64,000 bases of DNA from the IMG/VR virus record IMGVR_UViG_3300028400_000003, positions 20,086 through 84,085 of that record, one strand, 5' to 3'. This document shows positions 223 through 28,792 of the stretch, piece after piece. This DNA comes from a virus. The translations under genes and the position numbers were made by a program. Under the pieces are notes generated by a model. That model worked only from the letters and a program-made list of their open reading frames with translations. It ran no database searches and had not been told where the DNA came from. Positions within the stretch are counted from its first letter, which is position 1. The number at the start of each line of letters is the position of its first letter.

Positions 223-822
223 GTGGAGGATGAAATGAAGACCAACACCAGGGTTCCTAGCTTAGACCGGGCGGCTGAAATACAAAAGGCGTTGTGGGAT
301 GCCTATCAGGCCAACCTTGCGCTTCGCAGAACGGCCAACAACTGGGGCGGGTACGGTGAGCTTGAAGGCTATGATGACAAGGTAGGTGACTGCGTGGGCC
401 TTGTGGCCGAAATGGAGCAGAAGTTCCGTGAAAGTGGCCTGCTTACCTGCAAGGAGCGCATAGATGGCGACGGTATTCTGCTCAGGCCGTTCCTCATAGC
501 AGACCTTGAGGATGAGTTTGCACCTACTACGCCGGGTAAGGCTATGATCGGATGCTTTGCCTATGACGACCTACCCGAGTGGTTCAGGAAAATCGTGGAT
601 GACCGGCTAGGTCCTGAAGAGCTTAAGCGCGGCGATGGAATCGAGGTCTGCGTCATGCTGGATTACGAGAATGCCCGCACGGACATCTACGTCGAGGCTT
701 CCGGCAACAACGGAATCATCGCTGGTATTAGCTGGATAGCTTACGGCGCGGCTTCGCCGCTGGAGCTTGCTCAGGCTATGGCAGCTGACGTAAGCCTCGC
801 CCTGGTCCTGCTTGGCCGATAG
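223..822 (+). CDS. hypothetical protein
   Basis: 199 aa ORF; alternative ATG at 235 follows GGAGG. Confidence 0.7.
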   Translation: MEDEMKTNTRVPSLDRAAEIQKALWDAYQANLALRRTANNWGGYGELEGYDDKVGDCVGLVAEMEQKFRESGLLTCKERIDGDGILLRPFLIADLEDEFAPTTPGKAMIGCFAYDDLPEWFRKIVDDRLGPEELKRGDGIEVCVMLDYENARTDIYVEASGNNGIIAGISWIAYGAASPLELAQAMAADVSLALVLLGR

Positions 823-850
823 TTTCGTGCTGGAGCGGTATCATGGTAGC

Positions 851-1966
851 GTGACTGATGACCAGTACCGCATTCTCGCAGCTAGGTTCCTACAGGAGGC
901 GATGTACACCAAGAATAAGCGGACTGGGTACCGTAGCTTCAGGGCGTGGTTAAAGAACAATGGCTATCCGGCCCCCGGTACTGATCGGGGGTTGCGCATT
1001 TTGAAGAGCTTAAAGGCTGCTCGTATTCGCACCAACACATGGGAGAGCCCCGGCCCCGATGGACCGGTACAACTGAACCAGGTACGTATTGATTGGGATA
1101 GCGTCGAGTCTGATCTACGGGCCTCGATCCTCGACTTTATACGCAGGGAGGTTGAACCGGTTAGGATTAAACCGGCAAGGCTTGGAAACAAGTTGGGCGT
1201 TCTGTCCATACCCGATATTCACGTCGGGAAACTGGCATGGGGTGATGAGGTAGGCAGTAGCTATGATACCAAGATCGCGGTAGCCGTTTACAGGGATGCA
1301 GCTTCACACCTGATAGGCGAGTTGCGGCGCAACGATGTAGGAGAGGTGGTCTATGTCGTTGGAAACGACCTGCTACACGTAGATGGCTTTGACAATGCCA
1401 CTACCGCAGGCACCCCGCAGGATACCGACACCAGGTTCCAGAAAGCTTTTTTACGGGCCAAGGACATGATCGTGGCCACGGCTTGCGCCCTAGCCGAGTT
1501 TGCTCACGTTCACCTTGTGGTTCAGCCTGGAAACCATGACCGTATTCTTTCGTGGACCCTAGGCGAGGTGCTGGCCGCCTACTTCAAGGACTCGAAGGCG
1601 GTGAAGGTTGACAATGCACCTGCCTATCGCCGGTACGTGCAAAAGGGGCGCATCTTGTTCGGCATCACTCACGGTGACAAGGTGAAACCAACCGACCTTC
1701 CCTCGATCATGGCCACGGAGGCCCCGGACAGCTGGGGGAGTACGGTGTACCGCGAGTGGTTTCTTGGGCACCGCCACCGCAAGCAGGAGTTTACGACGTT
1801 GAGCATAACCGAACAGGGCGGCGTTCGCATTCGCTTCCTCCCAAGCTTGGCCGGTCAGGACCGCTGGCATTTCGAGCGCGGATACTACAACGTGCGTTCG
1901 GCCGAGGCTCACGTCTACGCTCCTGAAAAGGGGCACCAGCTGATGAGCTTCTACTACCATCTTTAG
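851..1966 (+). CDS. calcineurin-like metallophosphoesterase
   Basis: Motifs DIHVG, GNDLLH, GNHD, THGD, GHRH. GTG at 851 lies 6 nt after TATCAT (leaderless pattern). Confidence 0.85.
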   Translation: MTDDQYRILAARFLQEAMYTKNKRTGYRSFRAWLKNNGYPAPGTDRGLRILKSLKAARIRTNTWESPGPDGPVQLNQVRIDWDSVESDLRASILDFIRREVEPVRIKPARLGNKLGVLSIPDIHVGKLAWGDEVGSSYDTKIAVAVYRDAASHLIGELRRNDVGEVVYVVGNDLLHVDGFDNATTAGTPQDTDTRFQKAFLRAKDMIVATACALAEFAHVHLVVQPGNHDRILSWTLGEVLAAYFKDSKAVKVDNAPAYRRYVQKGRILFGITHGDKVKPTDLPSIMATEAPDSWGSTVYREWFLGHRHRKQEFTTLSITEQGGVRIRFLPSLAGQDRWHFERGYYNVRSAEAHVYAPEKGHQLMSFYYHL

Positions 1967-2093: not shown

Positions 2094-2122
2094 TTGACTT
2101 ATTTATGCTGGCACGCTATACT
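2094..2122 (+). promoter_or_regulatory. sigma70-type promoter for tmRNA
   Basis: TTGACT-N17-TATACT. Extra TTGACA boxes at 1973 and 2051. Confidence 0.8.
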
Positions 2123-2163
2123 GCGAGTAGGCGGTGAGGTTCAAGCCCAAGCCGCCGAAAACT

Positions 2164-2482
2164 GGGGGCGAACAGGGTTCGACGGAGCAGAAGGTAGCCG
2201 TGGCGCGGGGGCGAGGTGCCGGAGGCCTCGTAAAACACCGGCAAGCTGTAACTGGCAACGACACTTTTCTCGCCGCTGCTTAGCAAAGTCTAGGCAGCCG
2301 GGTCAGCGTCAGACCTGGGAACAGAAATGACGCCCTCGTGCAAGATGCCTACCTCCAAGGGTATACCGCTACCCGCTCGCACGGGCAAAAGGCGGTGTTA
2401 GTACGGCGTGTTCATACCCCCAACGAGTAGCGCCACGCCTACCCTGTTTCGGACGCGGGTTCAATACCCGCCGCCTCCACCA
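2164..2482 (+). ncRNA. ssrA: tmRNA, tag peptide (A)GNDTFLAAA*
   Basis: 5' GGGGGCG pairs with 3' CGCCTCC-A-CCA, including G3:U70. T-arm GCGGG-TTCAATA-CCCGC; PK1 GAGG/CCTC; TAACT before the resume codon; tag ORF at 2254-2283. Confidence 0.95.
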
Positions 2483-2485
2483 CTC

Positions 2486-2508
2486 GGGCCGCCTTCGGGC
2501 GGCCCTTT
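2486..2508 (+). terminator. intrinsic terminator after tmRNA
   Basis: GGGCCGCC-TTCG-GGCGGCCC followed by TTT. Confidence 0.8.
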
Positions 2509-2522
2509 GCTTGTGTCAACAC

Positions 2523-2551
2523 TTGACAAAAATAGTAGGGTCATATATAAT
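2523..2551 (+). promoter_or_regulatory. consensus sigma70 promoter of the tRNA operon
   Basis: TTGACA-N17-TATAAT. Confidence 0.9.
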
Positions 2552-2599
2552 ACAGCTGGCAGCCGCAGGCGGCCGGTGGAGCTTGAAAACCTAGATCGT

Positions 2600-2675
2600 A
2601 TAGGGGTGGCGCAATTGGTAGCGCACCGGCTTTGGGAGCCGGGGGTTGCGGGTTCAAGCCCCGCCCCCTATACCA
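2600..2675 (+). tRNA. tRNA-Pro(TGG)
   Basis: Cloverleaf; CCGGC-TTTGGGA-GCCGG; encoded CCA; A1-U72 pair. Confidence 0.93.
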
Positions 2676-2677
2676 TA

Positions 2678-2721
2678 TGGGCGGCATGGATGCAAGCTGG
2701 GTTCAAGCCCCAGCCCGCCCA
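2678..2721 (+). ncRNA. tRNA-like minihelix (acceptor stem plus T-arm only)
   Basis: TGGGCGG/CCGCCCA plus GCTGGG-TTCAAGC-CCCAGC. Only 11 nt replace the D and anticodon arms. Confidence 0.5.
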
Positions 2722-2725
2722 AGAG

Positions 2726-2909
2726 CGCGGGAGTTGCACCATGATGCGCAGAGCAGCCGATGGAAGGTGCAACAGGTTGCCGCCGAAGGCGGGGTCGGCG
2801 GTGGAAACAATGGAGCGGGTTTGGGAAGATGCGGCCAGCTACGCTGACCAACGCATCGGCCCGAGCGTAGGGGAACCCGCAGGGGCTACGGTAGGTGGGG
2901 ACCGTAGCT
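2726..2909 (+). ncRNA. putative structured ncRNA, copy 1
   Basis: Stems 2733-40/2766-73 and 2815-21/2874-80. Hairpin loops AGGCGGGG (2787-94) and AGGTGGGG (2893-2900). Internal pseudoknot. Confidence 0.65.
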
Positions 2910-2915
2910 GTTTAT

Positions 2916-2991
2916 GGGCGCGTAGCTCCAACGGGAGAGCGGCCGGTTTGCACCCGGCAGGTTGCAGGTTCAAATCCTGTCGCGTCCACCA
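2916..2991 (+). tRNA. tRNA-Ala(TGC)
   Basis: Cloverleaf; G3:U70; GCCGG-TTTGCAC-CCGGC; CCA. Confidence 0.95.
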
Positions 2992-2994
2992 TGC

Positions 2995-3084
2995 GGTGGG
3001 GTGGCGGAGCCAGGTTTAACGCACCCGGTTGCTAGCCGGGCGGTCTGAAAAGGCCCGTAGGTTCAAATCCTACTCCCACCGCCA
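2995..3084 (+). tRNA. tRNA-Ser(GCT)
   Basis: Long variable arm; G73; CCCGG-TTGCTAG-CCGGG. Confidence 0.93.
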
Positions 3085-3087
3085 GAT

Positions 3088-3165
3088 GCCAGCGTAGCCC
3101 AATCAGGCAGAGGCACCCGGCTTAGGACCGGGGTAGTGCAGGTTCAAGTCCTGCCGCTGGCACCA
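3088..3165 (+). tRNA. tRNA-Leu(TAG) with a short variable loop
   Basis: CCCGG-CTTAGGA-CCGGG; 5-nt variable loop GTAGT; A73; CCA. Confidence 0.9.
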
Positions 3166-3166
3166 T

Positions 3167-3241
3167 GCCCGGTTAGCTCAACGGTAGAGCGTTCGCCTTG
3201 TAAGCGAGGGGCTGGGGGTTCAAATCCCTCACCGGGCTCCA
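3167..3241 (+). tRNA. tRNA-Thr(TGT)
   Basis: Cloverleaf; anticodon loop CTTGTAA; CCA. Confidence 0.93.
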
Positions 3242-3246
3242 GAGGG

Positions 3247-3451
3247 GCGTCTGCACGACGCATGCGGCCTGGCGCGGGCGGGGCGGGCCGTCGCGGGAGC
3301 CTGTTCGGAGCCGGAGGGCTGCACTAGATCATGGGAACAGGCAGGCTGCACCGGAGGTGGGGCCGGTGTGGAAGCGGAGCAGACCTAGTAGGCTTCATGC
3401 CTGCGGAGCGTAGGTGGGGTCTGCACATCATGATCGGCGGGGGTCATGATG
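3247..3451 (+). ncRNA. putative structured ncRNA, copy 2, with two leading hairpins
   Basis: Stems 3299-3306/3335-42 and 3379-85/3418-24. Hairpin loops AGGTGGGG (3355-62) and CGGCGGGG (3435-42). A leading hairpin loop ends in GGGCGGGG. Confidence 0.65.
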
Positions 3452-3457
3452 ACTCGA

Positions 3458-3533
3458 TGGCCGGTAGTTCAAATGGCAGAACAACGGACTTTGGATCCGT
3501 GGGTTGCAGGTTCGAGTCCTGCCCGGCCAGCCA
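3458..3533 (+). tRNA. tRNA-Gln(TTG)
   Basis: U1-A72; ACGGA-CTTTGGA-TCCGT; CCA. Confidence 0.93.
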
Positions 3534-3536
3534 GAC

Positions 3537-3623
3537 GGAGGGGTCGCCAGTAGGTGCGGCAACCGGTCTTGAAAACCGGGGCGGGTAACACCGTTGCAGG
3601 TTCGAGTCCTGTCCCCTCCGCCA
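3537..3623 (+). tRNA. tRNA-Ser(TGA)
   Basis: Long variable arm; anticodon loop CTTGAAA; G73; CCA. Confidence 0.92.
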
Positions 3624-3626
3624 TAT

Positions 3627-3701
3627 GGCCCTGTCGTCTAATGGACAGGACATCTGCCTACGGAGCAGAAGATCGGGGTTCGAGTCCCTGCGGGGCCGCC
3701 A
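3627..3701 (+). tRNA. tRNA-Arg(ACG)
   Basis: TCTGC-CTACGGA-GCAGA; CCA. Confidence 0.93.
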
Positions 3702-3721
3702 GAAAGAAAGGGGCGACCGGT

Positions 3722-3901
3722 GTGGAAAGACCTTATTGCCTTCTCGTTGATAACTTTGTGACCGCCTGTGGAAAGTACAGGTTTGCCATCGTTGACTTCC
3801 CCTACGTCGCAAGAACACTCGATGAGGTCACATGCGAAGAGTGCAAACGCTCCAAGGAATACCAGAAGTTGGTAGACATGGCCCCGTCGTCTAATGGATA
3901 G
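3722..3901 (+). CDS. small Cys-rich protein inside the tRNA cluster
   Basis: GTG after GAAAGGGG; motifs TACG and VTCEEC; 3' end overlaps tRNA-Arg(TCT). Confidence 0.5.
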   Translation: MERPYCLLVDNFVTACGKYRFAIVDFPYVARTLDEVTCEECKRSKEYQKLVDMAPSSNG

Positions 3902-3954
3902 GGCAGCGGGCTTCTAACCCGCCTGTGCAGGTTCGAGTCCTGCCGGGGTCACCA
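3880..3954 (+). tRNA. tRNA-Arg(TCT)
   Basis: GCGGG-CTTCTAA-CCCGC; CCA. Confidence 0.93.
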
Positions 3955-3966
3955 GAAGGAGGGACG

Positions 3967-4437
3967 ATGACGAGGGAGATATGCAAGGCGTGCGGTCGGG
4001 TCAGTCGCGTAGGGTTCAGCGTCCCGGATGACCTTTGGGCCGAGGTGGTGCCCGAGGTCTATCGCGATAACGTCGTGTGCCTGGCGTGCTTCACGGAATG
4101 GGCTGATGAGTCGTTGAGGCCCTGGGACGAGAAGATCGAACTTTACCCGGTTTCCTTGAAGACGCTTCTATCCTATGAACAATCTGGCATAGTGGATACC
4201 CCAGAAGTAGGGCTGCGGCGCTTGCTCGACGAACTTGTTAGTCAGGGGCGCATCCTCAAGGCCACCTTTAATAGAATGCAACAACGCTACTGGAATGTTG
4301 TCCTTGAGGTTGACGAGGAACAGTACTACAAGGCAGGCTTCCGGCTTGGCATCATTTCCGAAATAACCGAAAAGATAGACCGGCAGTATGGAATCTACAC
4401 GAACATCACCATGCATCCAAAACGGGTGGAAACATGA
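3967..4437 (+). CDS. hypothetical protein with N-terminal CxxC...CxxC
   Basis: RBS AAGGAGGG before ATG 3967; CKACG and CLAC. Confidence 0.7.
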   Translation: MTREICKACGRVSRVGFSVPDDLWAEVVPEVYRDNVVCLACFTEWADESLRPWDEKIELYPVSLKTLLSYEQSGIVDTPEVGLRRLLDELVSQGRILKATFNRMQQRYWNVVLEVDEEQYYKAGFRLGIISEITEKIDRQYGIYTNITMHPKRVET

Positions 4438-5093
4438 AACGGGCGCTTCGTAAGCATCATAGAACTTACCATCTTCCTTGGAGCGAAGGCGCGTCACGGG
4501 ACGATCTGATTGTGCCAAGCGACGATCATTTTACCGGCCTGCCAGTCGTGGTAACGGAGAAGATGGACGGCGAAAACACATCACTCTACCGCCACACCGT
4601 ACACGCGAGGTCGGTAAACAGCGGCCACCATCCATCTAGGGCATGGATCAAGGGCTTCTGGGCGAAGATCGCCCATGCCATACCGGACGGCCTGATCATT
4701 CGCGGCGAAAACCTTTATGCAACGCATTCCATCTACTACGCCGATCTACCAAGCTACTTCATGGGGTTCGCCGTCGAAACCGCAGAGGGGCTTGTGTGGT
4801 CATGGAGAAGGACCGTTGAGTTGTTTGAAGCGCTTGGCATCGAGCCGGTTCCGGTGATATATGAAGGGCTATACAATCGCGACGTGATACACCGGGCGGC
4901 TATGGAATATTTCGCCAAGACTGGCGGCCTTGATCGTCATGAGGGGTACGTCGTTCGGGTGAGCGGTGGATACCTAGCCTCAAAGCATAAGACGAGGATC
5001 AATAAATGGGTTCGCAAAGACCATGTGACCACGGACGGGCATTGGATGCATGGTAAGTTAGTGGTAAATGGGTTGGCAAAGGAGAGGGGGTAG
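4434..5093 (+). CDS. ATP-dependent RNA ligase family protein
   Basis: Motif I TEKMDGEN; RGENL; FMGFAV; EGYVVR; KWVR. Confidence 0.85.
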   Translation: MKRALRKHHRTYHLPWSEGASRDDLIVPSDDHFTGLPVVVTEKMDGENTSLYRHTVHARSVNSGHHPSRAWIKGFWAKIAHAIPDGLIIRGENLYATHSIYYADLPSYFMGFAVETAEGLVWSWRRTVELFEALGIEPVPVIYEGLYNRDVIHRAAMEYFAKTGGLDRHEGYVVRVSGGYLASKHKTRINKWVRKDHVTTDGHWMHGKLVVNGLAKERG

Positions 5094-5095
5094 GA

Positions 5096-5317
5096 GTGCG
5101 GCGAAGACGTAGAGGTCTAGCGGCAAGGAAGGCCAAGCAGGTGGCCAAGACGCTTATTGGCGGCATGTTAGGTACGGCCTTCGGGGCCGTGATGCTCCCA
5201 TTGGAGGCGCTTCATCGGGCCGAAACCGGCTTGACGGATGAACCCTATCTAGTCGAGGAGGGCTTAGGCAACTTGTTTGGCGGCCTCGTGGAAACCATGT
5301 TTGACTGGGAGGAGTAG
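5096..5317 (+). CDS. hypothetical protein
   Basis: Coupled ORF with an RBS. Confidence 0.6.
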   Translation: MRRRRRGLAARKAKQVAKTLIGGMLGTAFGAVMLPLEALHRAETGLTDEPYLVEEGLGNLFGGLVETMFDWEE

Positions 5318-5326
5318 GAGGATACG

Positions 5327-5593
5327 ATGACCAAGAAGGAGATGCAGAAACGCATTAACACCCTGGAAGAAGAGGTGGCCTTTCTGCGGGAGCTAGTGCG
5401 TATGCTGACGCATGGACAGATGCCACAAACCCCAACCTATCCCACGCCTACGCCCTGGCAGCCGCTACCCAGACGAACGAATCCGGTATGGCCGCAACTC
5501 CCGTGGGACATCTGGGTTGGCGATAATACAGGCGGTAAGCCGAAGCACTGGAGCAGTAGCGCTAGCGGGGTTGAAGTCAGCGCCTTTCACTAG
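5327..5593 (+). CDS. hypothetical protein
   Basis: RBS AGGAGG; N-terminal coiled coil and Pro-rich tail. Confidence 0.7.
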   Translation: MTKKEMQKRINTLEEEVAFLRELVRMLTHGQMPQTPTYPTPTPWQPLPRRTNPVWPQLPWDIWVGDNTGGKPKHWSSSASGVEVSAFH

Positions 5594-5705
5594 TAGAATG
5601 GTCTTACATCCCCCTCGACGCTGCGGCGTTGAGGTGCACCCCCGCCGAACCGTCACCGTAGGTGGCTTGCCGAAGGGCTAGGCGGGGGTTGCGTTATGAT
5701 CAGGT

Positions 5706-6260
5706 ATGAAACCCTTACGCGATGGAAAGATTGTAGGCGTTGATCCAGGCACGGGTAAGGTTCACGTGGCTGTCCTGCGAGTATCGGATGGCCGGCTTTA
5801 CTATGAAACCAGTGGCTCCTACGGGGTAGGCGACCTTGAACCGGTCAAGGAGCTGCTAAGCACGGCCAAGAGGTTGGTTGTAGAGAAACCCGGCGGTACC
5901 CTGTACGGAAAGGTGCGCTACGATCACCTGGTAATGATCAGCGTCAACGCAGGCCGCGTGTTCCAAATGGGCATAGACCAGGGGCTCGAGTCCCGCCTGG
6001 TAAACGCGCATGGTCCTGGAGGCTGGCGGCCCGCATTGCTTAAGAGCGGAAAGGGCTACCGTCGAAAGGGGCAAGAGGTAGCGGAGCTTGAGGCCCTGCT
6101 GCCTTACCTGATCCGTGAGCTACCGCTTCGCAATGGTAGGTTGAAGGGGGTGGTGAGTGAGCACCAGCGGGACGCCTTGGGCATAGCCGTGGCGGGCGCG
6201 TTGGGGCTTAACCCGCTACCCCGTAGAGGCAAGCAGCGCCGTGGACCCATAGCTCAATAG
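5706..6260 (+). CDS. RuvC-like Holliday junction resolvase
   Basis: VGVDPG, VVEKP and HQRDALGIA acidic motifs. Confidence 0.7.
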   Translation: MKPLRDGKIVGVDPGTGKVHVAVLRVSDGRLYYETSGSYGVGDLEPVKELLSTAKRLVVEKPGGTLYGKVRYDHLVMISVNAGRVFQMGIDQGLESRLVNAHGPGGWRPALLKSGKGYRRKGQEVAELEALLPYLIRELPLRNGRLKGVVSEHQRDALGIAVAGALGLNPLPRRGKQRRGPIAQ

Positions 6261-6319
6261 GTTAGAGCACCCGGCTCATAACCGGTAGGTTGCAGGTTCA
6301 AGTCCTGCTGGGTCCACCA
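6243..6319 (+). tRNA. tRNA-CAT, most likely Ile2 (lysidine), otherwise elongator Met
   Basis: GGACCCA acceptor; loop CTCATAA; no initiator features (no C1:A72 mismatch, no GGG/CCC anticodon stem). Confidence 0.88.
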
Positions 6320-6329
6320 TTTTACACCG

Positions 6330-6357
6330 GTGCCTAGTTGAAAATTTGACTAGGCAC
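6330..6357. terminator. hairpin (terminator or operator) after the tRNA
   Basis: Inverted repeat GTGCCTAGT...ACTAGGCAC. Confidence 0.5.
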
Positions 6358-6375
6358 ATATTTAGCCGCATGCCC

Positions 6376-6420
6376 TTGACAAGTAGTGTAATACCCTATA
6401 TACTAAGGACAGGAGGTAGG
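6376..6420 (+). promoter_or_regulatory. early-type promoter plus RBS cassette
   Basis: TTGACA-N17-TATACT followed by AAGGACAGGAGGTAGG. Confidence 0.88.
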
Positions 6421-6422
6421 CA

Positions 6423-6803
6423 ATGGCGAAGATCGCACATATACTGACTGATGACCAAGAGATCAGCATCTTCACCACTGGGGGCAACGTGGACGTAAAA
6501 GGGGTTTCTTCGTTCGCGGAAGGCGTTCAGCGGTCTAAGGAGCTTGCTGAGGAGTACCGTGAAGCCGGGTATGAGGTGACCGTGTACGTCAAGTTTGACT
6601 TGGGCGAGGACGGCGCTATGTACGCTAGCAGCTTCGAGTTTGGCCCTGAAGGCGCGGAGATCGCCGGTGTCTATGAAAGCCCCGAGGGTGAAATTCCGGG
6701 CAAAATTCACGTGTACACGGTTCACGGCGGCGATGGTCTGCGCATTCCGGCCACGGTCGAGGACCTGAACAACGACTGGAACGAATGGGGGTTTAAAGAA
6801 TGA
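6423..6803 (+). CDS. acidic hypothetical early-type protein
   Basis: First ORF after a strong promoter/RBS. Confidence 0.8.
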   Translation: MAKIAHILTDDQEISIFTTGGNVDVKGVSSFAEGVQRSKELAEEYREAGYEVTVYVKFDLGEDGAMYASSFEFGPEGAEIAGVYESPEGEIPGKIHVYTVHGGDGLRIPATVEDLNNDWNEWGFKE

Positions 6804-12674: not shown

Positions 12675-13274
12675 ATGGGCCAGGAACAGGTGGTGTACAG
12701 AACGGCGCTGCGGAAGAGGGGGCCGCTGAGCCGTCAGGCACCGGGCTCAAGTGTTGAGATCGTTCAGCGGGTCGAGTTTGACCGTGGCGTTGTTTTTAAG
12801 CACGATCTAAGCCACGGGCTGCCGCGTGAGTACCGCGAGGTCGAGGCCGTTTACTGTGAGGTTCCCTTCAGGGGAGGCTATGAAGGCGATCAAGCCTATA
12901 CGGATTTTATCAGCGTAGTGGCCTCAATTTACGATACATTAGGGGTGCCAACCATCGTTGCTGGACCGCGTGCCATCGAAAAAGCGGGTGAGCCGCACCG
13001 CAAGCTAGATGAGTATCAAGTGGTATCATCCGTGATACCGCTTTACGCTTGGGGTTGGGATGGGCCGCTGCCTGACCGCTGGGACAAAATGCTGATCATG
13101 CTATCAGGTCACTTCGAGTCCATAGGGGACCCCGTGTGCGGCTTCGGCAATACCGGGTTGGTGTTCGCGTTGCGCGGGAAGGGGTTCGTTATGTCGGACG
13201 TGAATGCGGTAGCCGTATCTGTAACGGCCAAGCGCATCGAGGAAGCTTTAAGGAGGCAGAATGACGCTAGATGA
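12675..13274 (+). CDS. methyltransferase-fold protein
   Basis: DPVCGFGNTG...MSDVN SAM-binding-like motif; TATAAT-N6-ATG at 12675. Confidence 0.6.
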   Translation: MGQEQVVYRTALRKRGPLSRQAPGSSVEIVQRVEFDRGVVFKHDLSHGLPREYREVEAVYCEVPFRGGYEGDQAYTDFISVVASIYDTLGVPTIVAGPRAIEKAGEPHRKLDEYQVVSSVIPLYAWGWDGPLPDRWDKMLIMLSGHFESIGDPVCGFGNTGLVFALRGKGFVMSDVNAVAVSVTAKRIEEALRRQNDAR

Positions 13275-13533
13275 GTTTCGCGAGTTTGTCAAAGCGGGCC
13301 GGTGGCACTTCGCCAAAACGATGCCTAAGCATCCCCACTTCTACGTGCGAAAGCGCGAGTCTGACCCTAAGCGGTTCATGGAAGCCGCGAGGTTCGTGTG
13401 GGAAAACGGGACGCCGCGCAAGTGGTTCAACCGCGTTTATCGTTACCTTGAGGTGGATGGGTATGAATACTGGTTGGCCGCGCCGTTTCAGAAGGATACC
13501 GTGATTATCAACCGAAGGCCACTCGATGAGTAA
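13261..13533 (+). CDS. small protein with WHFAKTMPKHPHFY motif
   Basis: Translationally coupled inside the cluster. Confidence 0.75.
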   Translation: MTLDEFREFVKAGRWHFAKTMPKHPHFYVRKRESDPKRFMEAARFVWENGTPRKWFNRVYRYLEVDGYEYWLAAPFQKDTVIINRRPLDE

Positions 13534-14677
13534 ACCACGCCTCCCTGACAGCCGCATTACCCTGCCGCTCACCGTTTACGAGGCGGCTCAGCGCCGGATT
13601 GCGTATGTGTTTGACGAGTTTGACCACGTGGTTGTGGAGATGAGCGGCGGTAAGGATAGCACGGTGGTCTTCAACCTTGCGCTCCAAGAGGCGCAAAGGC
13701 GCGGGAGGCTACCGCTTACCGTAAGATGGCTTGACCAGGAGTTCGAGTGGCAGGCCACCGTGGACTACATGACGGCCATTTTCGAGCGTGATGATGTAAG
13801 GCCCGAATGGTTCCAGGTCGAAATGATTATGAGCAATGCGTCTTCTTCCTCAGAAGACCAGATCGTGGTTTGGGAAGAGGGCATGGAGGACAGGTGGATT
13901 CACCCGAGGCACCCGCTTTCGATCAAGGACAAGAGCCTGTTCCCAAAGCTCGACCGGTTCCACGCCTTCCTGAAAAAGGTAGACCGCTTCTTAAATCCTA
14001 ACAACCCGGTGGCCGTCTTCACTGGAATGCGGGCGGAAGAAAGCGCTGGCCGTAAAGCAGGGCTGACCACTCCCAGTTACAAGGGATGGGTTAGTTGGGC
14101 TAGCGCCCTTGACAAGCGGCGCAACCACTACGCTTTTCACCCGATATACGACTGGTCCGTGACGGATGTTTGGGGGGCCATTGCAAAGAACGGGTGGCCG
14201 TACAACCGTGTCTATGATTACCTGTTCGCCACCGGGAGGCCGCTCAGTCGTATGCGTGTCAGCAACCTAATCCACGAGAACGCCATTATTGACGCCCCCG
14301 TGTTACAGGAGTTCGAGCCTCGCACCTATGAGCGCATCGTGGCCCGCACCGGCGGTATTGACGCCATCGGCAAGGTTGGAAACGACTTCTTTAAGGTCGA
14401 GTTGCCGCCGATGTTTGGAAGCTGGGAAGAGTACACGGAATGGTTAGCGCCGAAGCTGATCACTGACCCGAAAAAGCTTGCCCGGTGGAAGAAGGAGGTA
14501 AGGACGTTCAGGGAGAAGCTTAGCGGCGCAATACCTGACGAGGCCATTAACAAATTCATCGTCAAGTCGTTGATACGCAACGACTGGGAAGGTGCCTGGT
14601 TGAAGATCAAGATGTCGCAGTGGTATTACAAGGCCCGGCAACGGGACCGTGGCGAGCTAGAGGGGGTCAATCAGTGA
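13526..14677 (+). CDS. PAPS-reductase-fold protein (IbrA/YbdN-like)
   Basis: PP-loop SGGKDS; WLDQE; GMRAEES; HPIYDW; MRVS. Confidence 0.88.
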   Translation: MSKPRLPDSRITLPLTVYEAAQRRIAYVFDEFDHVVVEMSGGKDSTVVFNLALQEAQRRGRLPLTVRWLDQEFEWQATVDYMTAIFERDDVRPEWFQVEMIMSNASSSSEDQIVVWEEGMEDRWIHPRHPLSIKDKSLFPKLDRFHAFLKKVDRFLNPNNPVAVFTGMRAEESAGRKAGLTTPSYKGWVSWASALDKRRNHYAFHPIYDWSVTDVWGAIAKNGWPYNRVYDYLFATGRPLSRMRVSNLIHENAIIDAPVLQEFEPRTYERIVARTGGIDAIGKVGNDFFKVELPPMFGSWEEYTEWLAPKLITDPKKLARWKKEVRTFREKLSGAIPDEAINKFIVKSLIRNDWEGAWLKIKMSQWYYKARQRDRGELEGVNQ

Positions 14678-27748: not shown

Positions 27749-28792
27749 ATGGAAAAGGATTTCAGCTTTAGCTTGGTAGACGATATTCGCAACGACGGTA
27801 ACGCGTTGCTGCTGATCACGCGGTACGGTTCCCATCTGTACGGGACAGCAACAGAGGACTCAGACGAAGATTACGCAATCCTTTACGCCCCACCGCTTGG
27901 TGATATCCTGCTTGGCACAGAAAGGCACTCCTACCGGTACAATTCCAACGCGGACGGCAAGAACCACGCAGGCGACGTTGACATACAGGCGTCAAGCGTT
28001 AACGGGGTGGTCAAGCGGTTCATGAAGGGAGAGCTTGTAGCGCTCGATCTGCTTCATGCTCCAACCAATCCGCATGCGTTAATCTACATACACCCCGCCT
28101 TCATGCAGTTTCTAGAGGGCTACATTTGGAACCACCGGTTGACACCGGTACGCATGGCGGGCGTGCTCGGTTACATGCGCAACCAGGCTAACAAGTACGG
28201 GATGAAAGGCACCAAGCTTGGTGTAGCGTTGGAGCTTGATCGGGCGGTCAACCGCTTGATCGAGCGCTACGGTGGGGATACACTTATCAGCGCCGTAGCT
28301 AACGACATACCCGTAAACAAGCCGCATGTGCAATGGGCATGGATGGACGCCCTCGGAAAGGGCGGTTCCCATAAGAAGGTGCGAGCCCTGAACGTGTTCG
28401 GCCGCTTTGCCCCTGAATACTGGACGCTCGATCAGTTGAGCGTAGCCGTGCGTAGGGTGGTTGACGGTTATGGACACCGCTCACTCAAGGCAATGGAGCA
28501 AGAAGGCGTTGACTACAAGGCGCTAAGCCATGCGCTCCGGGCCGCGCATGAGTATGAGGCTTACATCGGCGGCCACCTACGCTTCCCGCTGCCGCCGAAC
28601 GTGGTAGACACCGTGCGGGCCATTAAGGAAGGTAGGATGGATTTTGCTCAGGCCAAGGCGGTAGTCGAAGCGGCCGTTGATCGGGTCATGCGGCTGCATG
28701 AGGCCAGGCAGGCGGACAACGAGGCGGTGGAAGAAAATTATGCGCTGGCCAAGCAGGCGTTGAAGAACCTGTATGCCGCGCTTTGGGGGTAG
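27749..28792 (+). CDS. Pol-beta superfamily nucleotidyltransferase (RlaP/YcgL-like)
   Basis: GSHLYGTATEDSDED; DYKALSHALR. Confidence 0.8.
   Translation: MEKDFSFSLVDDIRNDGNALLLITRYGSHLYGTATEDSDEDYAILYAPPLGDILLGTERHSYRYNSNADGKNHAGDVDIQASSVNGVVKRFMKGELVALDLLHAPTNPHALIYIHPAFMQFLEGYIWNHRLTPVRMAGVLGYMRNQANKYGMKGTKLGVALELDRAVNRLIERYGGDTLISAVANDIPVNKPHVQWAWMDALGKGGSHKKVRALNVFGRFAPEYWTLDQLSVAVRRVVDGYGHRSLKAMEQEGVDYKALSHALRAAHEYEAYIGGHLRFPLPPNVVDTVRAIKEGRMDFAQAKAVVEAAVDRVMRLHEARQADNEAVEENYALAKQALKNLYAALWG

What the first reader, a model, noticed from the sequence alone, without database searches (positions are those of the whole stretch)
2726..3451. Two structurally matching, sequence-divergent ncRNA candidates with NGGYGGGG hairpin loops inside the tRNA operon
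Seen: the Pro-Ala spacer (2726-2909) and the Thr-Gln spacer (3292-3451) share one layout: CGCGGGA-[8-bp stem...ATGG...stem]-AGG-[hairpin, loop AGGYGGGG, ending GTGG]-AA-N-GGA-[7-bp stem...GAGCGTAGG...stem]-A-[hairpin, loop NGGYGGGG]. Every stem differs in sequence yet still pairs: GTTGCACC/GGTGCAAC vs GCCTGTTC/GAACAGGC; GCCGCCGA/TCGGCGGT vs GCACCGG/CCGGTGT; GCGGGTT/AACCCGC vs GCAGACC/GGTCTGC; GCTACGGT/ACCGTAGC vs CATCATGAT/GTCATGATG. Linkers and loops are conserved. Each RNA is itself two copies of a 'GGA-stem-A(GG)-G-loop hairpin' unit. Inference: selection acts on RNA structure; the RNAs would be transcribed from the 2523 promoter and released by tRNA processing. They could act as protein decoys or sponges (for example antitoxin or anti-defence mimics) or as scaffolds. 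I do not recognise this as a named RNA family.
Basis: partly seen in the sequence, partly recalled or inferred. Interest (0 to 1): 0.9.

Follow-up and report, generated by a model that had tools for sequence, protein, structure and literature searches.

The report
Modular G-loop RNAs in phage tRNA operon
Two spacers in a hydrothermal-vent phage's tRNA operon encode paralogous folded RNAs that match no catalogued RNA family, are built from a repeated stem-plus-G-rich-loop module, and are kept by selection in related phages, but their job is still unknown.

Summary
Copy A (2726-2909) and copy B (3292-3451) share a four-helix layout. A covariance model built from B alone finds A at 44.4 bits (E 3.7e-9). 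All 33 modelled pairs form in both copies, and 18 of the 33 changed on both sides. A strict descriptor of the unit hits 4 times in the window, all in these spacers. It also hits once in relative L226 and 0 times in the other loci scanned, 3.87 Mb scanned in all.

No Rfam 15 family matches, even at E<=10 on the spacers alone. T4 rnaC/rnaD do not match either.

One metagenomic relative (L226) keeps copy B at 86% identity with compensatory changes. It also holds a rearranged copy A, split by a tRNA-like minihelix. Contigs in three vent-metagenome runs carry further variants.

Expression, processing and function are untested. My best guess is a stable RNA released by tRNA processing that acts in trans through its GGNGGGG loops.

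Earlier notes of this scan cover the same stretch of this genome only. Other phages yielded different tRNA-cluster RNA families.

The parts
2523..2551 (+). Promoter-like site (TTGACA, 17 nt, TATAAT) upstream of the tRNA/ncRNA operon
   Evidence: 12 of 12 consensus positions. A terminator-like hairpin of the preceding tmRNA lies at 2486-2505. This is a consensus match only.
2600..2675 (+). tRNA-Pro(UGG), the first gene of the operon; its 3' end would set the 5' side of the A spacer
   Evidence: ARAGORN; Rfam tRNA 68.4 bits.
2679..2721 (+). tRNA-like minihelix (acceptor-like stem plus T-arm with a 7-nt T-loop; no D or anticodon arm), 4 nt upstream of copy A
   Evidence: Fold. Weak mascRNA-type tRNA-like match, 16.1 bits. 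In L226 a near-identical element lies inside the rearranged copy A.
2726..2909 (+). Copy A, 184 nt. Unit 1 is P1 + P2 with loop AGGCGGGG. Unit 2 is P3, whose interior holds GAGCGTAGG at 2863-2871, + P4 with loop AGGTGGGG.
   Evidence: R1 match 44.4 bits, E 3.7e-9. All pairs form. Held at about 95-97% identity in contigs of runs X2 and X3.
2916..2991 (+). tRNA-Ala; RNase P cleavage at its 5' end would create the 3' end of copy A (6-nt tail)
   Evidence: ARAGORN. The processing step is inferred.
3242..3291 (+). 5' part of the Thr-Gln spacer: two small hairpins, the second with a G-rich loop that includes GGCGGGG at 3277. Possibly a degenerate third unit.
   Evidence: Fold; motif position. L226 has a clearer extra unit at the same place. 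Assignment is weak.
3292..3451 (+). Copy B, 160 nt. Unit 1 is P1 + P2 with loop AGGTGGGG. Unit 2 is P3, whose interior holds GAGCGTAGG at 3406-3414, + P4 with loop CGGCGGGG.
   Evidence: The minimum-free-energy fold contains all four helices. Homolog in L226 at 138.5 bits. Held in contigs of runs X1, X2 and X3.
3458..3533 (+). tRNA-Gln; RNase P cleavage at its 5' end would create the 3' end of copy B (6-nt tail)
   Evidence: ARAGORN. The processing step is inferred.

Best explanation
The two spacers are genes for a previously uncatalogued family of modular structured RNAs carried in the tRNA operon of a group of hydrothermal-vent phages.

Each RNA is a string of two or three copies of one unit. 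A unit is a 7-8 bp stem preceded by GGA. The stem encloses a variable hairpin and a conserved purine-rich strand (..RUAGG; GAGCGUAGG in the second unit). A short linker, usually AGG, follows, and then a 7-10 bp hairpin that displays an 8-nt loop with the invariant pattern GG-N-GGGG.

Inferred, not shown:
- The RNAs are co-transcribed with the tRNAs from the promoter at 2523.
- They are cut out by the tRNA-processing enzymes. RNase P would cut at the next tRNA, and also at the minihelix where one is present.
- They accumulate as stable RNAs of about 85-215 nt.
- They act in trans. The repeated, identical G-rich loops give several binding sites for one partner, either a C-rich RNA (a sponge by base pairing) or an RNA-binding protein (a decoy or scaffold).

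The partner is unknown.
For: Structure under selection:
- 33 of 33 pairs form in A, B and the L226 homolog (99 of 99 cells), and 19 pairs changed on both sides.
- Stems differ while loops and linkers stay the same.

Sequence-level constraint beyond structure:
- All loops seen keep GG-N-GGGG: 4 in the window and 5 in L226.
- In run X2 both changes in loop 2 of copy A fall outside the fixed G positions. 2787 A>G changes the loop's first letter, and 2790 C>T changes the free N position.
- B and its L226 homolog are 135 of 157 identical (86%). The neighbouring exonuclease gene is 67% identical at DNA level, and beyond that gene, the tRNA/RNA pieces and three short protein matches I found nothing alike between L226 and this genome.
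- The 32-nt interior of P3 differs at 1 position between B and the L226 homolog.

Modularity:
- Units occur as 2+2 in the window.
- In L226 they occur as 3 in a row, plus 1 + minihelix + 1. This fits a unit that works on its own and can be released separately.

Context:
- Same strand as the tRNAs, inside the operon, 4-6 nt upstream of a tRNA in 4 of 4 cases.
- A consensus promoter lies upstream.
- Gene order around the RNAs differs between relatives while the RNAs persist.

Against a coding reading:
- Single-base insertions and deletions separate B from its homolog, and they remove the only ATG.
Against: - No transcript data: no listed run is on record as RNA. Expression, ends and stability are all inferred.
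- Only two phage lineages plus contig variants from three runs carry the family. Covariation therefore rests on three full sequences, and the alignments were fitted to the model's structure.
- No partner was identified. CCCCRCC is not enriched in the window (13 seen, 12.2 expected).
- The fixed short distance to the next tRNA would also suit a cis-acting leader.
- Folding energy of the A spacer is not unusual (z -1.49). The first unit of the L226 copy A has one mismatch in P1 and an alternative minimum-energy fold.
Confidence: 0.55

Rival explanations
1. The structures are cis-acting leaders or spacers of the polycistronic tRNA transcript. They would guide or time RNase P/RNase E cleavage, protect the precursor from exonucleases, or keep neighbouring tRNAs from misfolding. 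They would have no life of their own after processing.
For: The last hairpin ends 6, 6, 6 and 4 nt before the next tRNA in the four cases seen.
Against: Most tRNAs in both arrays are 1-4 nt apart with no such element, so processing does not need it. A purely structural spacer would not need invariant 7-nt loop sequences. Nor would it need a 32-nt interior that differs at 1 position between otherwise dissimilar phages.
Confidence: 0.18
2. They are Y-RNA-like partners of an RNA-surveillance or RNA-repair machine, with the adjacent tRNA-like minihelix as the tRNA-like domain. The machine could be host Ro60/Rsr with PNPase, or the phage's own ligase, phosphoesterase and CCA-enzyme kit.
For: A tRNA-like minihelix sits next to copy A in the window and inside it in L226. 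An RNA ligase (PF09414, 3.2e-28) and a phosphoesterase-type exonuclease (phrog_704, 2.6e-66) flank the RNA island. Earlier notes of this scan report Y-like RNAs in other phage tRNA clusters (leads only).
Against: No TROVE (PF05731) match in the 84-kb record, which is 82% complete, while the control genomes did match. The only YrlA match is 26.2 bits against a cut-off of 69, and it lies on tRNA-Leu/Thr, not on the spacers. Copy B has no minihelix in the window.
Confidence: 0.1
3. They are antisense or mimic RNAs aimed at the translation-rescue or tRNA-Ser system. The conserved GAGCGUAG would pair with the Tyr-Ala-Leu codons of a host-type tmRNA tag frame. The loops repeat the first seven bases of the phage tRNA-Ser genes.
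For: A contig in run X1 that overlaps the phage tmRNA at 2212-2244 runs on as a different tmRNA. I read its tag frame as G-N-D-N-Y-A-L, and it contains CUACGCUC, the exact complement of GAGCGUAG (table 7). The phage's own tmRNA (tag GNDTFLAAA) lacks that word. GGUGGGG and GGAGGGG are bases 1-7 of tRNA-Ser(GCU) at 2995 and tRNA-Ser(UGA) at 3537.
Against: The match is 8 bp and was found after the fact. Among about 720 nt of loose-end text I estimate roughly a 2% chance of such a hit. Complementarity does not extend beyond it. The first units lack the motif. tRNA-Ser genes of G+C-rich organisms commonly start with such G runs (recalled, not tested). No tmRNA was found in the 17.5 kb of L226 that I hold.
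Confidence: 0.05
4. The G-rich loops and linkers assemble into G-quadruplexes, within one RNA or between RNAs, and that fold is the functional state.
For: Seven GGYGGGG words cluster in 650 nt (7 of 23 in the window). GG doublets flank every stem. An earlier first-reader note raised this idea (e1-6124795).
Against: G-quadruplex-aware folding predicts none for B and only a marginal two-layer one in an alternative fold of A. The covarying stems show that the hairpins form, which places each G run in a separate 8-nt loop.
Confidence: 0.04
5. The pattern is not a functional RNA. It could be chance palindromes in G+C-rich spacer DNA, remnants of decayed tRNA genes, or a short selfish repeat.
For: Narrow distribution: nothing in IMG/VR or in 185,579 species genomes by four motif scans. 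The energy z-score of the A spacer is unremarkable.
Against: Full-length match between the paralogs at E 3.7e-9. 18-19 doubly compensated pairs. 86% identity between phages that otherwise share little. No tandem repeat. No tRNA or other Rfam signal in the cores.
Confidence: 0.03

Closest known systems
Bacteriophage T4 species 1 and species 2 stable RNAs (rnaC, rnaD), annotated in NC_000866 next to tRNA-Arg in the T4 tRNA cluster
   Same: Small non-tRNA RNA genes that sit in a phage tRNA gene cluster on the same strand as the tRNAs. From recall, not from a call: they are cut out by tRNA-processing enzymes and their function is still unknown.
   Different: No sequence or structure relation: the best R1 match in the T4 region is 3.8 bits, E 0.98, with filters off. 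T4 has two different single RNAs, not paralogs built from a repeated unit with G-rich loops.
Multi-site sponge or decoy RNAs: CsrB/RsmZ-type protein sponges, and the RosA sponge of the C-rich sRNA RoxS in Bacillus subtilis (PMC8216469; search listing and start of abstract seen only)
   Same: Works-like comparison only. The same short motif is displayed several times, in hairpin loops and linkers of one RNA. G-rich display would suit a C-rich RNA partner.
   Different: The loops are GG-N-GGGG, not the GGA-containing loops of Csr/Rsm sponges; only 1 of the 9 loops seen contains GGA. No Rfam match to any such family. No partner is known.
Bacterial Y RNAs of the YrlA type with Ro60/Rsr (Rfam RF02553)
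   Same: A structured RNA joined to a tRNA-like element, next to RNA-repair genes.
   Different: YrlA model not matched on the spacers. No TROVE protein in the record. The minihelix is absent from copy B.
GOLLD and ROOL large ornate RNAs, which a paper notes lie near tRNA genes in phages (PMC12286853; search listing and start of abstract seen only)
   Same: Phage-borne structured RNAs of unknown function found beside tRNA genes.
   Different: From recall, those RNAs are several hundred nucleotides long with their own Rfam models. None matched here. These RNAs are 160-184 nt and modular.

Membership tests
Any Rfam 15 family | Covariance-model score at or above the family's gathering score | tested here: not met
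   At gathering score the window gives 12 matches (tmRNA, 10 tRNAs, DUF3800-IX) and none in the spacer cores. At E<=10 on the spacers alone the best scores are 16.1 bits (on the minihelix), 15.2, 12.0, 9.2 and 2.9 bits, all far below the cut-offs. At E<=10 over 2100-6500 one weak tRNA-like match (15.8 bits) runs 17 nt from tRNA-Thr into the B spacer. The L226 homolog region has tRNA matches only.
T4 rnaC/rnaD-type stable RNAs | Non-tRNA RNA gene inside a phage tRNA cluster, same strand | tested here: met
T4 rnaC/rnaD-type stable RNAs | Homology in sequence and structure to rnaC or rnaD | tested here: not met
   R1 against T4 69000-74000 with filters off: best match 3.8 bits, E 0.98.
T4 rnaC/rnaD-type stable RNAs | Accumulates as a discrete stable RNA after tRNA processing | not testable with these tools
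   No listed run is on record as RNA.
Csr/Rsm-type protein sponge RNAs | Many hairpin loops or linkers carrying the GGA core motif | tested here: not met
   Loops are AGGYGGGG or CGGCGGGG. Only the P4 loop of the L226 homolog contains GGA. GGA does precede each P stem, but as a linker.
Bacterial Y RNA (YrlA) with Ro60/Rsr | Match to RF02553, and a TROVE-domain protein in the same genome | tested here: not met
   The YrlA match is 26.2 bits (cut-off 69) and lies on tRNA-Leu/Thr, not on the spacers. PF05731 has 0 matches in the 84-kb record, which is 82% complete; 2 of 14 control genomes matched. A host-encoded Rsr cannot be excluded.
Bacterial Y RNA (YrlA) with Ro60/Rsr | tRNA-like domain within or beside the RNA | tested here: inconclusive
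   A minihelix lies beside copy A, and inside the L226 copy A, but none is present at copy B in the window.
Type III antitoxin RNA arrays (ToxI-like) | Tandem, near-identical direct repeats | tested here: not met
   Tandem Repeats Finder gives 0 rows in 2500-4000 at minimum score 30. Units share layout, not sequence: A against B is 73 of 127 aligned letters. I did not test for an adjacent toxin gene beyond Pfam on 8 neighbouring ORFs, of which 1 matched above its curated cut-off, the RNA ligase.
Known self-cleaving ribozymes found beside phage tRNAs (HDV-like and others in Rfam) | Match to the Rfam ribozyme models | tested here: not met
   No such match at E<=10. An unknown ribozyme class cannot be excluded by this test.
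RNA G-quadruplex element | A predicted stable quadruplex competitive with the hairpin fold | tested here: not met
   ViennaRNA with the quadruplex option predicts none in B, and a two-layer one only in an alternative fold of A that breaks P2.

The most novel reading that the evidence does not exclude
The G-loop units are a multivalent RNA weapon in a fight over the host's tRNA and ribosome-rescue machinery.

They are released from the tRNA operon next to a phage tmRNA with an altered tag, an RNA ligase, a phosphoesterase and, according to an earlier first-reader note, a CCA enzyme.

The loops copy the 5' acceptor strand of tRNA-Ser. They would therefore pair with C-rich 3' strands or C-tails of the kind that MenT/AbiE-type nucleotidyltransferase toxins add to serine tRNAs (PMC11541572, passages read). 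The internal GAGCGUAG would pair with the Tyr-Ala-Leu codons of the host-type tmRNA, but not with the phage's own tmRNA.

If so, this would be the first RNA decoy or antisense that a phage directs at trans-translation or at a tRNA-acceptor-end toxin.
Probability: 0.08. Interest if true: 0.85.

Novelty: new variant of a known kind. Interest (0 to 1): 0.62.

Why it matters
Phage tRNA clusters have been known since T4 to hide small stable RNAs whose function was never explained. This adds a clearly defined family with an unusual build: one unit reused two to five times, each showing the same G-rich loop.

The family sits inside what looks like an RNA repair and ribosome-rescue island (tmRNA, RNA ligase, phosphoesterase). 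It is conserved at tRNA-like levels between phages that otherwise share little.

The repeated display of an invariant loop gives a concrete handle for finding a partner, by pull-down or by a complementary-RNA search once the host is known. It could reveal a new RNA-based way for phages to interfere with host RNA metabolism or defence. The narrow distribution and the absence of any expression data limit its weight for now.

Tried and rejected
Searches for more homologs, mostly empty:
- Phage GenBank records with blastn of 2100-4000: tRNA matches only, and 0 records covered 80% of the query.
My hairpin scans found nothing like the element in them.
- A stricter central pattern: 2 stretches, neither with the element's hairpins or nearby tRNA genes; I read them as coding sequence.
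- A B-specific 19-mer: 0 in IMG/VR and 0 in the species genomes.
- A generic unit-1 pattern: 0 in IMG/VR and 61 in the species genomes, of which 0 of 61 close a stem of 5 bp or more.
- A relaxed unit-2 pattern: 56 stretches in IMG/VR. None has both a P3-like stem of 6 bp or more and a G-loop; 1 of 56 has a 7-bp stem only.
- R1 on 82 RNA-ligase-neighbour and exonuclease loci (1.17 Mb): 0 matches.
- R1 on 21 further exonuclease-relative loci (0.31 Mb): 0 matches.
- R1 on 48 metagenome loci: only L226 matched.
- R1 on the whole 84-kb record: full-length match only at copy B, plus a weak partial match in copy A's P4 hairpin, and none elsewhere.

Expression: no RNA holder listed. All laid runs were contigs, so they show no starts, ends or levels.

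Ideas dropped or left unsupported:
- Coding reading. The open frames over the spacers run through tRNA genes, and the ATG at 3331 is lost in the relative.
- Minus-strand RNA with C-rich loops. The G-U pairs would become A-C mismatches.
- Shine-Dalgarno mimicry. By my own reading, only some loops fit the anti-SD, and the conserved GGGG tail does not.
- A pseudoknot between the loops and the stem interiors. I found no conserved complement by eye.
- A target inside the phage. CCCCRCC and the complement of GAGCGTAGG are not enriched in the window.
- A base rate for tmRNA complementarity. Too few tmRNAs lie in my loci: 9 calls, 4 of them this phage.
- Host identification. I found no way to draw relatives for a virus record.
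- MAFFT alignment of the two copies or of the three first units misplaces the stems. I used model-based alignments instead.

Supplementary files of papers were not consulted.
Full report
WHAT IS THERE. The window is bases 20086-84085 of an 84-kb IMG/VR virus record, about 82% complete. The best-matching public run is a hydrothermal-vent metagenome. On the + strand lie these features:
- a tmRNA at 2164-2482, with tag GNDTFLAAA;
- a terminator-like hairpin at 2486-2505;
- a 12-of-12 sigma-70 consensus promoter at 2523-2551;
- nine tRNA genes between 2600 and 3954, with a tenth at 6243.

Most tRNAs are 1-4 nt apart. Two spacers are long: Pro-Ala (2676-2915) and Thr-Gln (3242-3457). An RNA ligase gene (PF09414, E 3.2e-28) follows the array. 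A phosphoesterase-type exonuclease gene (phrog_704, E 2.6e-66) precedes the tmRNA.

CHECK OF THE OBSERVATION. It finds copy A over its full length at 44.4 bits, E 3.7e-9. The next best match in the 64-kb window scores 10.0 bits, E 0.43. On the resulting alignment all 66 pair cells are standard pairs, and 18 of 33 pairs differ on both sides. No shuffle of 500 reaches this. Sliding the partners by 1-3 columns gives 26-54% pairing and 1-2 such pairs. The alignment has two sequences and was fitted to the structure, so these figures lean towards the structure.

G-loop hairpins are rare elsewhere. The window has exactly four with a GGYGGGG loop, with 9-10 bp stems, all in the spacers and all on the + strand. 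In 3.30 Mb of other DNA, both strands, there were 14 of 7 bp or more with a GGNGGGG loop, and 4 of those lie in the relative L226.

A composite descriptor of one unit gives 4 hits in the window, which are the four units. The descriptor is: GGA, a stem of 6 bp or more around 15-59 nt ending in ..GG, a linker of 1-5 nt, and a G-loop hairpin of 6 bp or more. It gives 1 hit in L226 and 0 in the rest of 3.87 Mb. Unit 2 of A also aligns without gaps to unit 1 of B at 71%. So the claim that each RNA is two copies of one unit holds too.

G-U pairs in P2 and P4 show that the tRNA strand is the folded strand. Energy alone is weak evidence: z is -1.49 for the A spacer and -3.70 for the B spacer. For B the minimum-energy fold contains all four helices. 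For A the four-helix fold is 4 kcal/mol above the minimum.

RELATIVES. The element is absent from the phage GenBank records and from IMG/VR and the species genomes by four motif scans. I therefore aligned 16 relatives of the upstream exonuclease and scanned IMG/VR and the JGI metagenomes with that alignment.

One metagenome contig, L226, has an exonuclease 60% identical to the window's. It carries a tRNA array on the opposite strand with a homolog of copy B at 138.5 bits, E 1.9e-30. B and this homolog are 135 of 157 identical. The differences include an A-U to G-C exchange in P3, several exchanges in P4 and a G-U to G-C change in P2. The P4 loop reads GGAGGGG, so the invariant pattern is GG-N-GGGG. 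With three sequences 99 of 99 cells pair and 19 pairs changed on both sides.

L226 also holds a further unit directly upstream of the B homolog, and a rearranged copy A. That copy consists of:
- a first unit, with one mismatch in P1;
- the same tRNA-like minihelix that precedes copy A in the window;
- a shortened second unit, with a 5-bp stem;
- a P4 hairpin almost identical to that of A.

Between L226 (17.5 kb held) and this 84-kb genome I found DNA or protein similarity in only a few places. These are the exonuclease (67% DNA identity), the tRNA and RNA pieces, one small ORF at 51% protein identity, and two further short protein matches of 33-37%. The RNA is therefore conserved about as well as the tRNAs and far better than its surroundings.

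Laying Logan contigs of four runs (three studies) on 2150-4450 showed the following:
- Copy A is held at about 95-97% identity in X2 and X3.
- The L226-type copy B is held in X1, X2 and X3.
- The listed changes are a C-G to U-G in P2, two loop positions that keep the G pattern, one linker deletion, a G-C to G-U in the inner hairpin of P3, and an A-U to G-U in P3 of B.
- The joints show that gene order around the RNAs differs between relatives.

X1 is probably the source sample, so it is not independent evidence.

WHAT IT IS NOT.
- No Rfam 15 family matches, at gathering score or at E<=10 with only the spacers given.
- T4 rnaC and rnaD, the classic stable RNAs of a phage tRNA cluster, do not match the model (3.8 bits).
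- There is no tandem repeat, so it is not a ToxI-like array.
- The loops lack the GGA of Csr/Rsm sponges in 8 of the 9 loops seen.
- The record has no TROVE protein, and the YrlA model does not touch the spacers.
- G-quadruplex-aware folding does not favour a quadruplex.
- The open frames across the spacers run through tRNA genes. Single-base indels between B and its homolog remove the only ATG.

HOW IT MOST LIKELY WORKS.
Shown:
- The fold is conserved and compensated.
- The loop pattern GG-N-GGGG is invariant.
- GAGCGUAGG is conserved in the second unit, and an ..RUAGG-like end in the interiors.
- The unit number is variable.
- The RNAs sit inside the tRNA operon on the tRNA strand.
- The last hairpin ends 4-6 nt before a tRNA in 4 of 4 cases.

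Inferred:
- The RNAs are co-transcribed from the promoter at 2523.
- They are released by RNase P and the 3' tRNA-processing enzymes.
- The minihelix acts as an extra cleavage signal, so that single units can be freed.
- They are stable.
- They act in trans through the repeated loops, on a C-rich RNA or on a protein.

I put 0.55 on this picture as a whole. I put about 0.9 on the narrower claim that these are genes for a selected structured RNA. The main rival is a cis-acting leader role (0.18). It is weakened because most tRNAs in both arrays do without such an element, and because a spacer would not need invariant loops.

LEADS THAT I COULD NOT SETTLE.
(a) GGUGGGG and GGAGGGG are also the first seven bases of the two phage tRNA-Ser genes (2995, 3537). 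The L226 sequence reads the same way in my reading.
(b) A contig in run X1 that overlaps the phage tmRNA continues as a different tmRNA. I read its tag frame as G-N-D-N-Y-A-L. It contains the exact 8-nt complement of GAGCGUAG, and the phage's own tmRNA lacks it. This was found after the fact, and I estimate a chance of about 2%.
B has no such partner, so the pairing is not conserved.
(d) MenT3, of the AbiE-related toxin family, extends serine tRNAs with C-tails (PMC11541572, passages read). G-rich loops would be complementary to such tails. This is speculation only.

COMPARISON AND NOVELTY. In kind, the closest known things are the T4 species 1 and 2 RNAs: same setting, function unknown, no homology. 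In likely mode of action, the closest are multi-site sponge RNAs, which is a resemblance and not membership. My literature searches for structured RNAs in phage tRNA clusters, phage RNA decoys and the second tag peptide found nothing that describes this family. I saw listings and abstract starts only. Earlier notes of this scan on this family concern this same genome only. Other phages gave different tRNA-cluster RNA families (not checked here). I class it as a new variant of a known kind, with interest 0.62. It is real, well defined and unusual in build, but it is narrow in distribution and has no expression or functional data.

Noticed in passing
window 2679-2721; L226 about 12925-12966 (-) and about 13507-13553 (-): tRNA-like minihelices: an acceptor-like stem plus a T-arm with a 7-nt T-loop, and no D or anticodon arm. 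They are not called by ARAGORN or the Rfam tRNA model. The window copy and one L226 copy are about 91% identical over 44 nt, but sit at different places relative to the G-loop units.
   Followed up: partly
L226 13066-13192 (-) and 12414-12519 (-): Two longer tRNA-like elements (127 and 106 nt). Each has a 7-bp acceptor-like stem closed on a T-arm, with unrelated hairpins in place of the D and anticodon arms. ARAGORN and Rfam call neither as a tRNA or tmRNA.
   Followed up: partly
window 5636-5696 (+); L226 11140-11197: A DUF3800-IX RNA (RF02968, 48.9 bits; cut-off 36.8) lies upstream of the ORF at 5706-6260, which has no Pfam match. A stretch about 90% identical that overlaps its 5' end (window 5594-5651) recurs in L226, next to the exonuclease gene and on the opposite strand.
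   Followed up: no
window 2164-2482: Phage tmRNA whose tag is GNDTFLAAA. Run X1 also holds a second tmRNA that shares its 5' part. I read the start of that second tag as G-N-D-N-Y-A-L.
   Followed up: partly
window 2995-3001 and 3537-3543: The first seven bases of tRNA-Ser(GCU) and tRNA-Ser(UGA) are GGUGGGG and GGAGGGG. These are the same words that the hairpin loops of the spacer RNAs display.
   Followed up: partly
window 812-1966, 4434-5093, 13526-14677, 27749-28792: RNA- and nucleotide-related genes around the RNA island: a phosphoesterase-type exonuclease (phrog_704), an RNA ligase (PF09414), a PAPS-reductase-like gene (phrog_2302) and a nucleotidyltransferase (phrog_388).
   Followed up: no
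window 2150-4450 against runs X1-X4: The order of tRNA genes and RNA units differs between related contigs. Examples: tRNA-Pro joined directly to tRNA-Ser(UGA), and copy A followed by 85 other letters and then tRNA-Gln. The island appears to be reshuffled gene by gene (tables 5 and 8).
   Followed up: no
window 3709-3727: A 19-nt stretch just after tRNA-Arg(ACG), ahead of what looks like a short ORF between the two tRNA-Arg genes (not checked), is 84% identical to the loop and 3' strand of P2 of copy B through the GGAA linker (D10). This may be chance.
   Followed up: no
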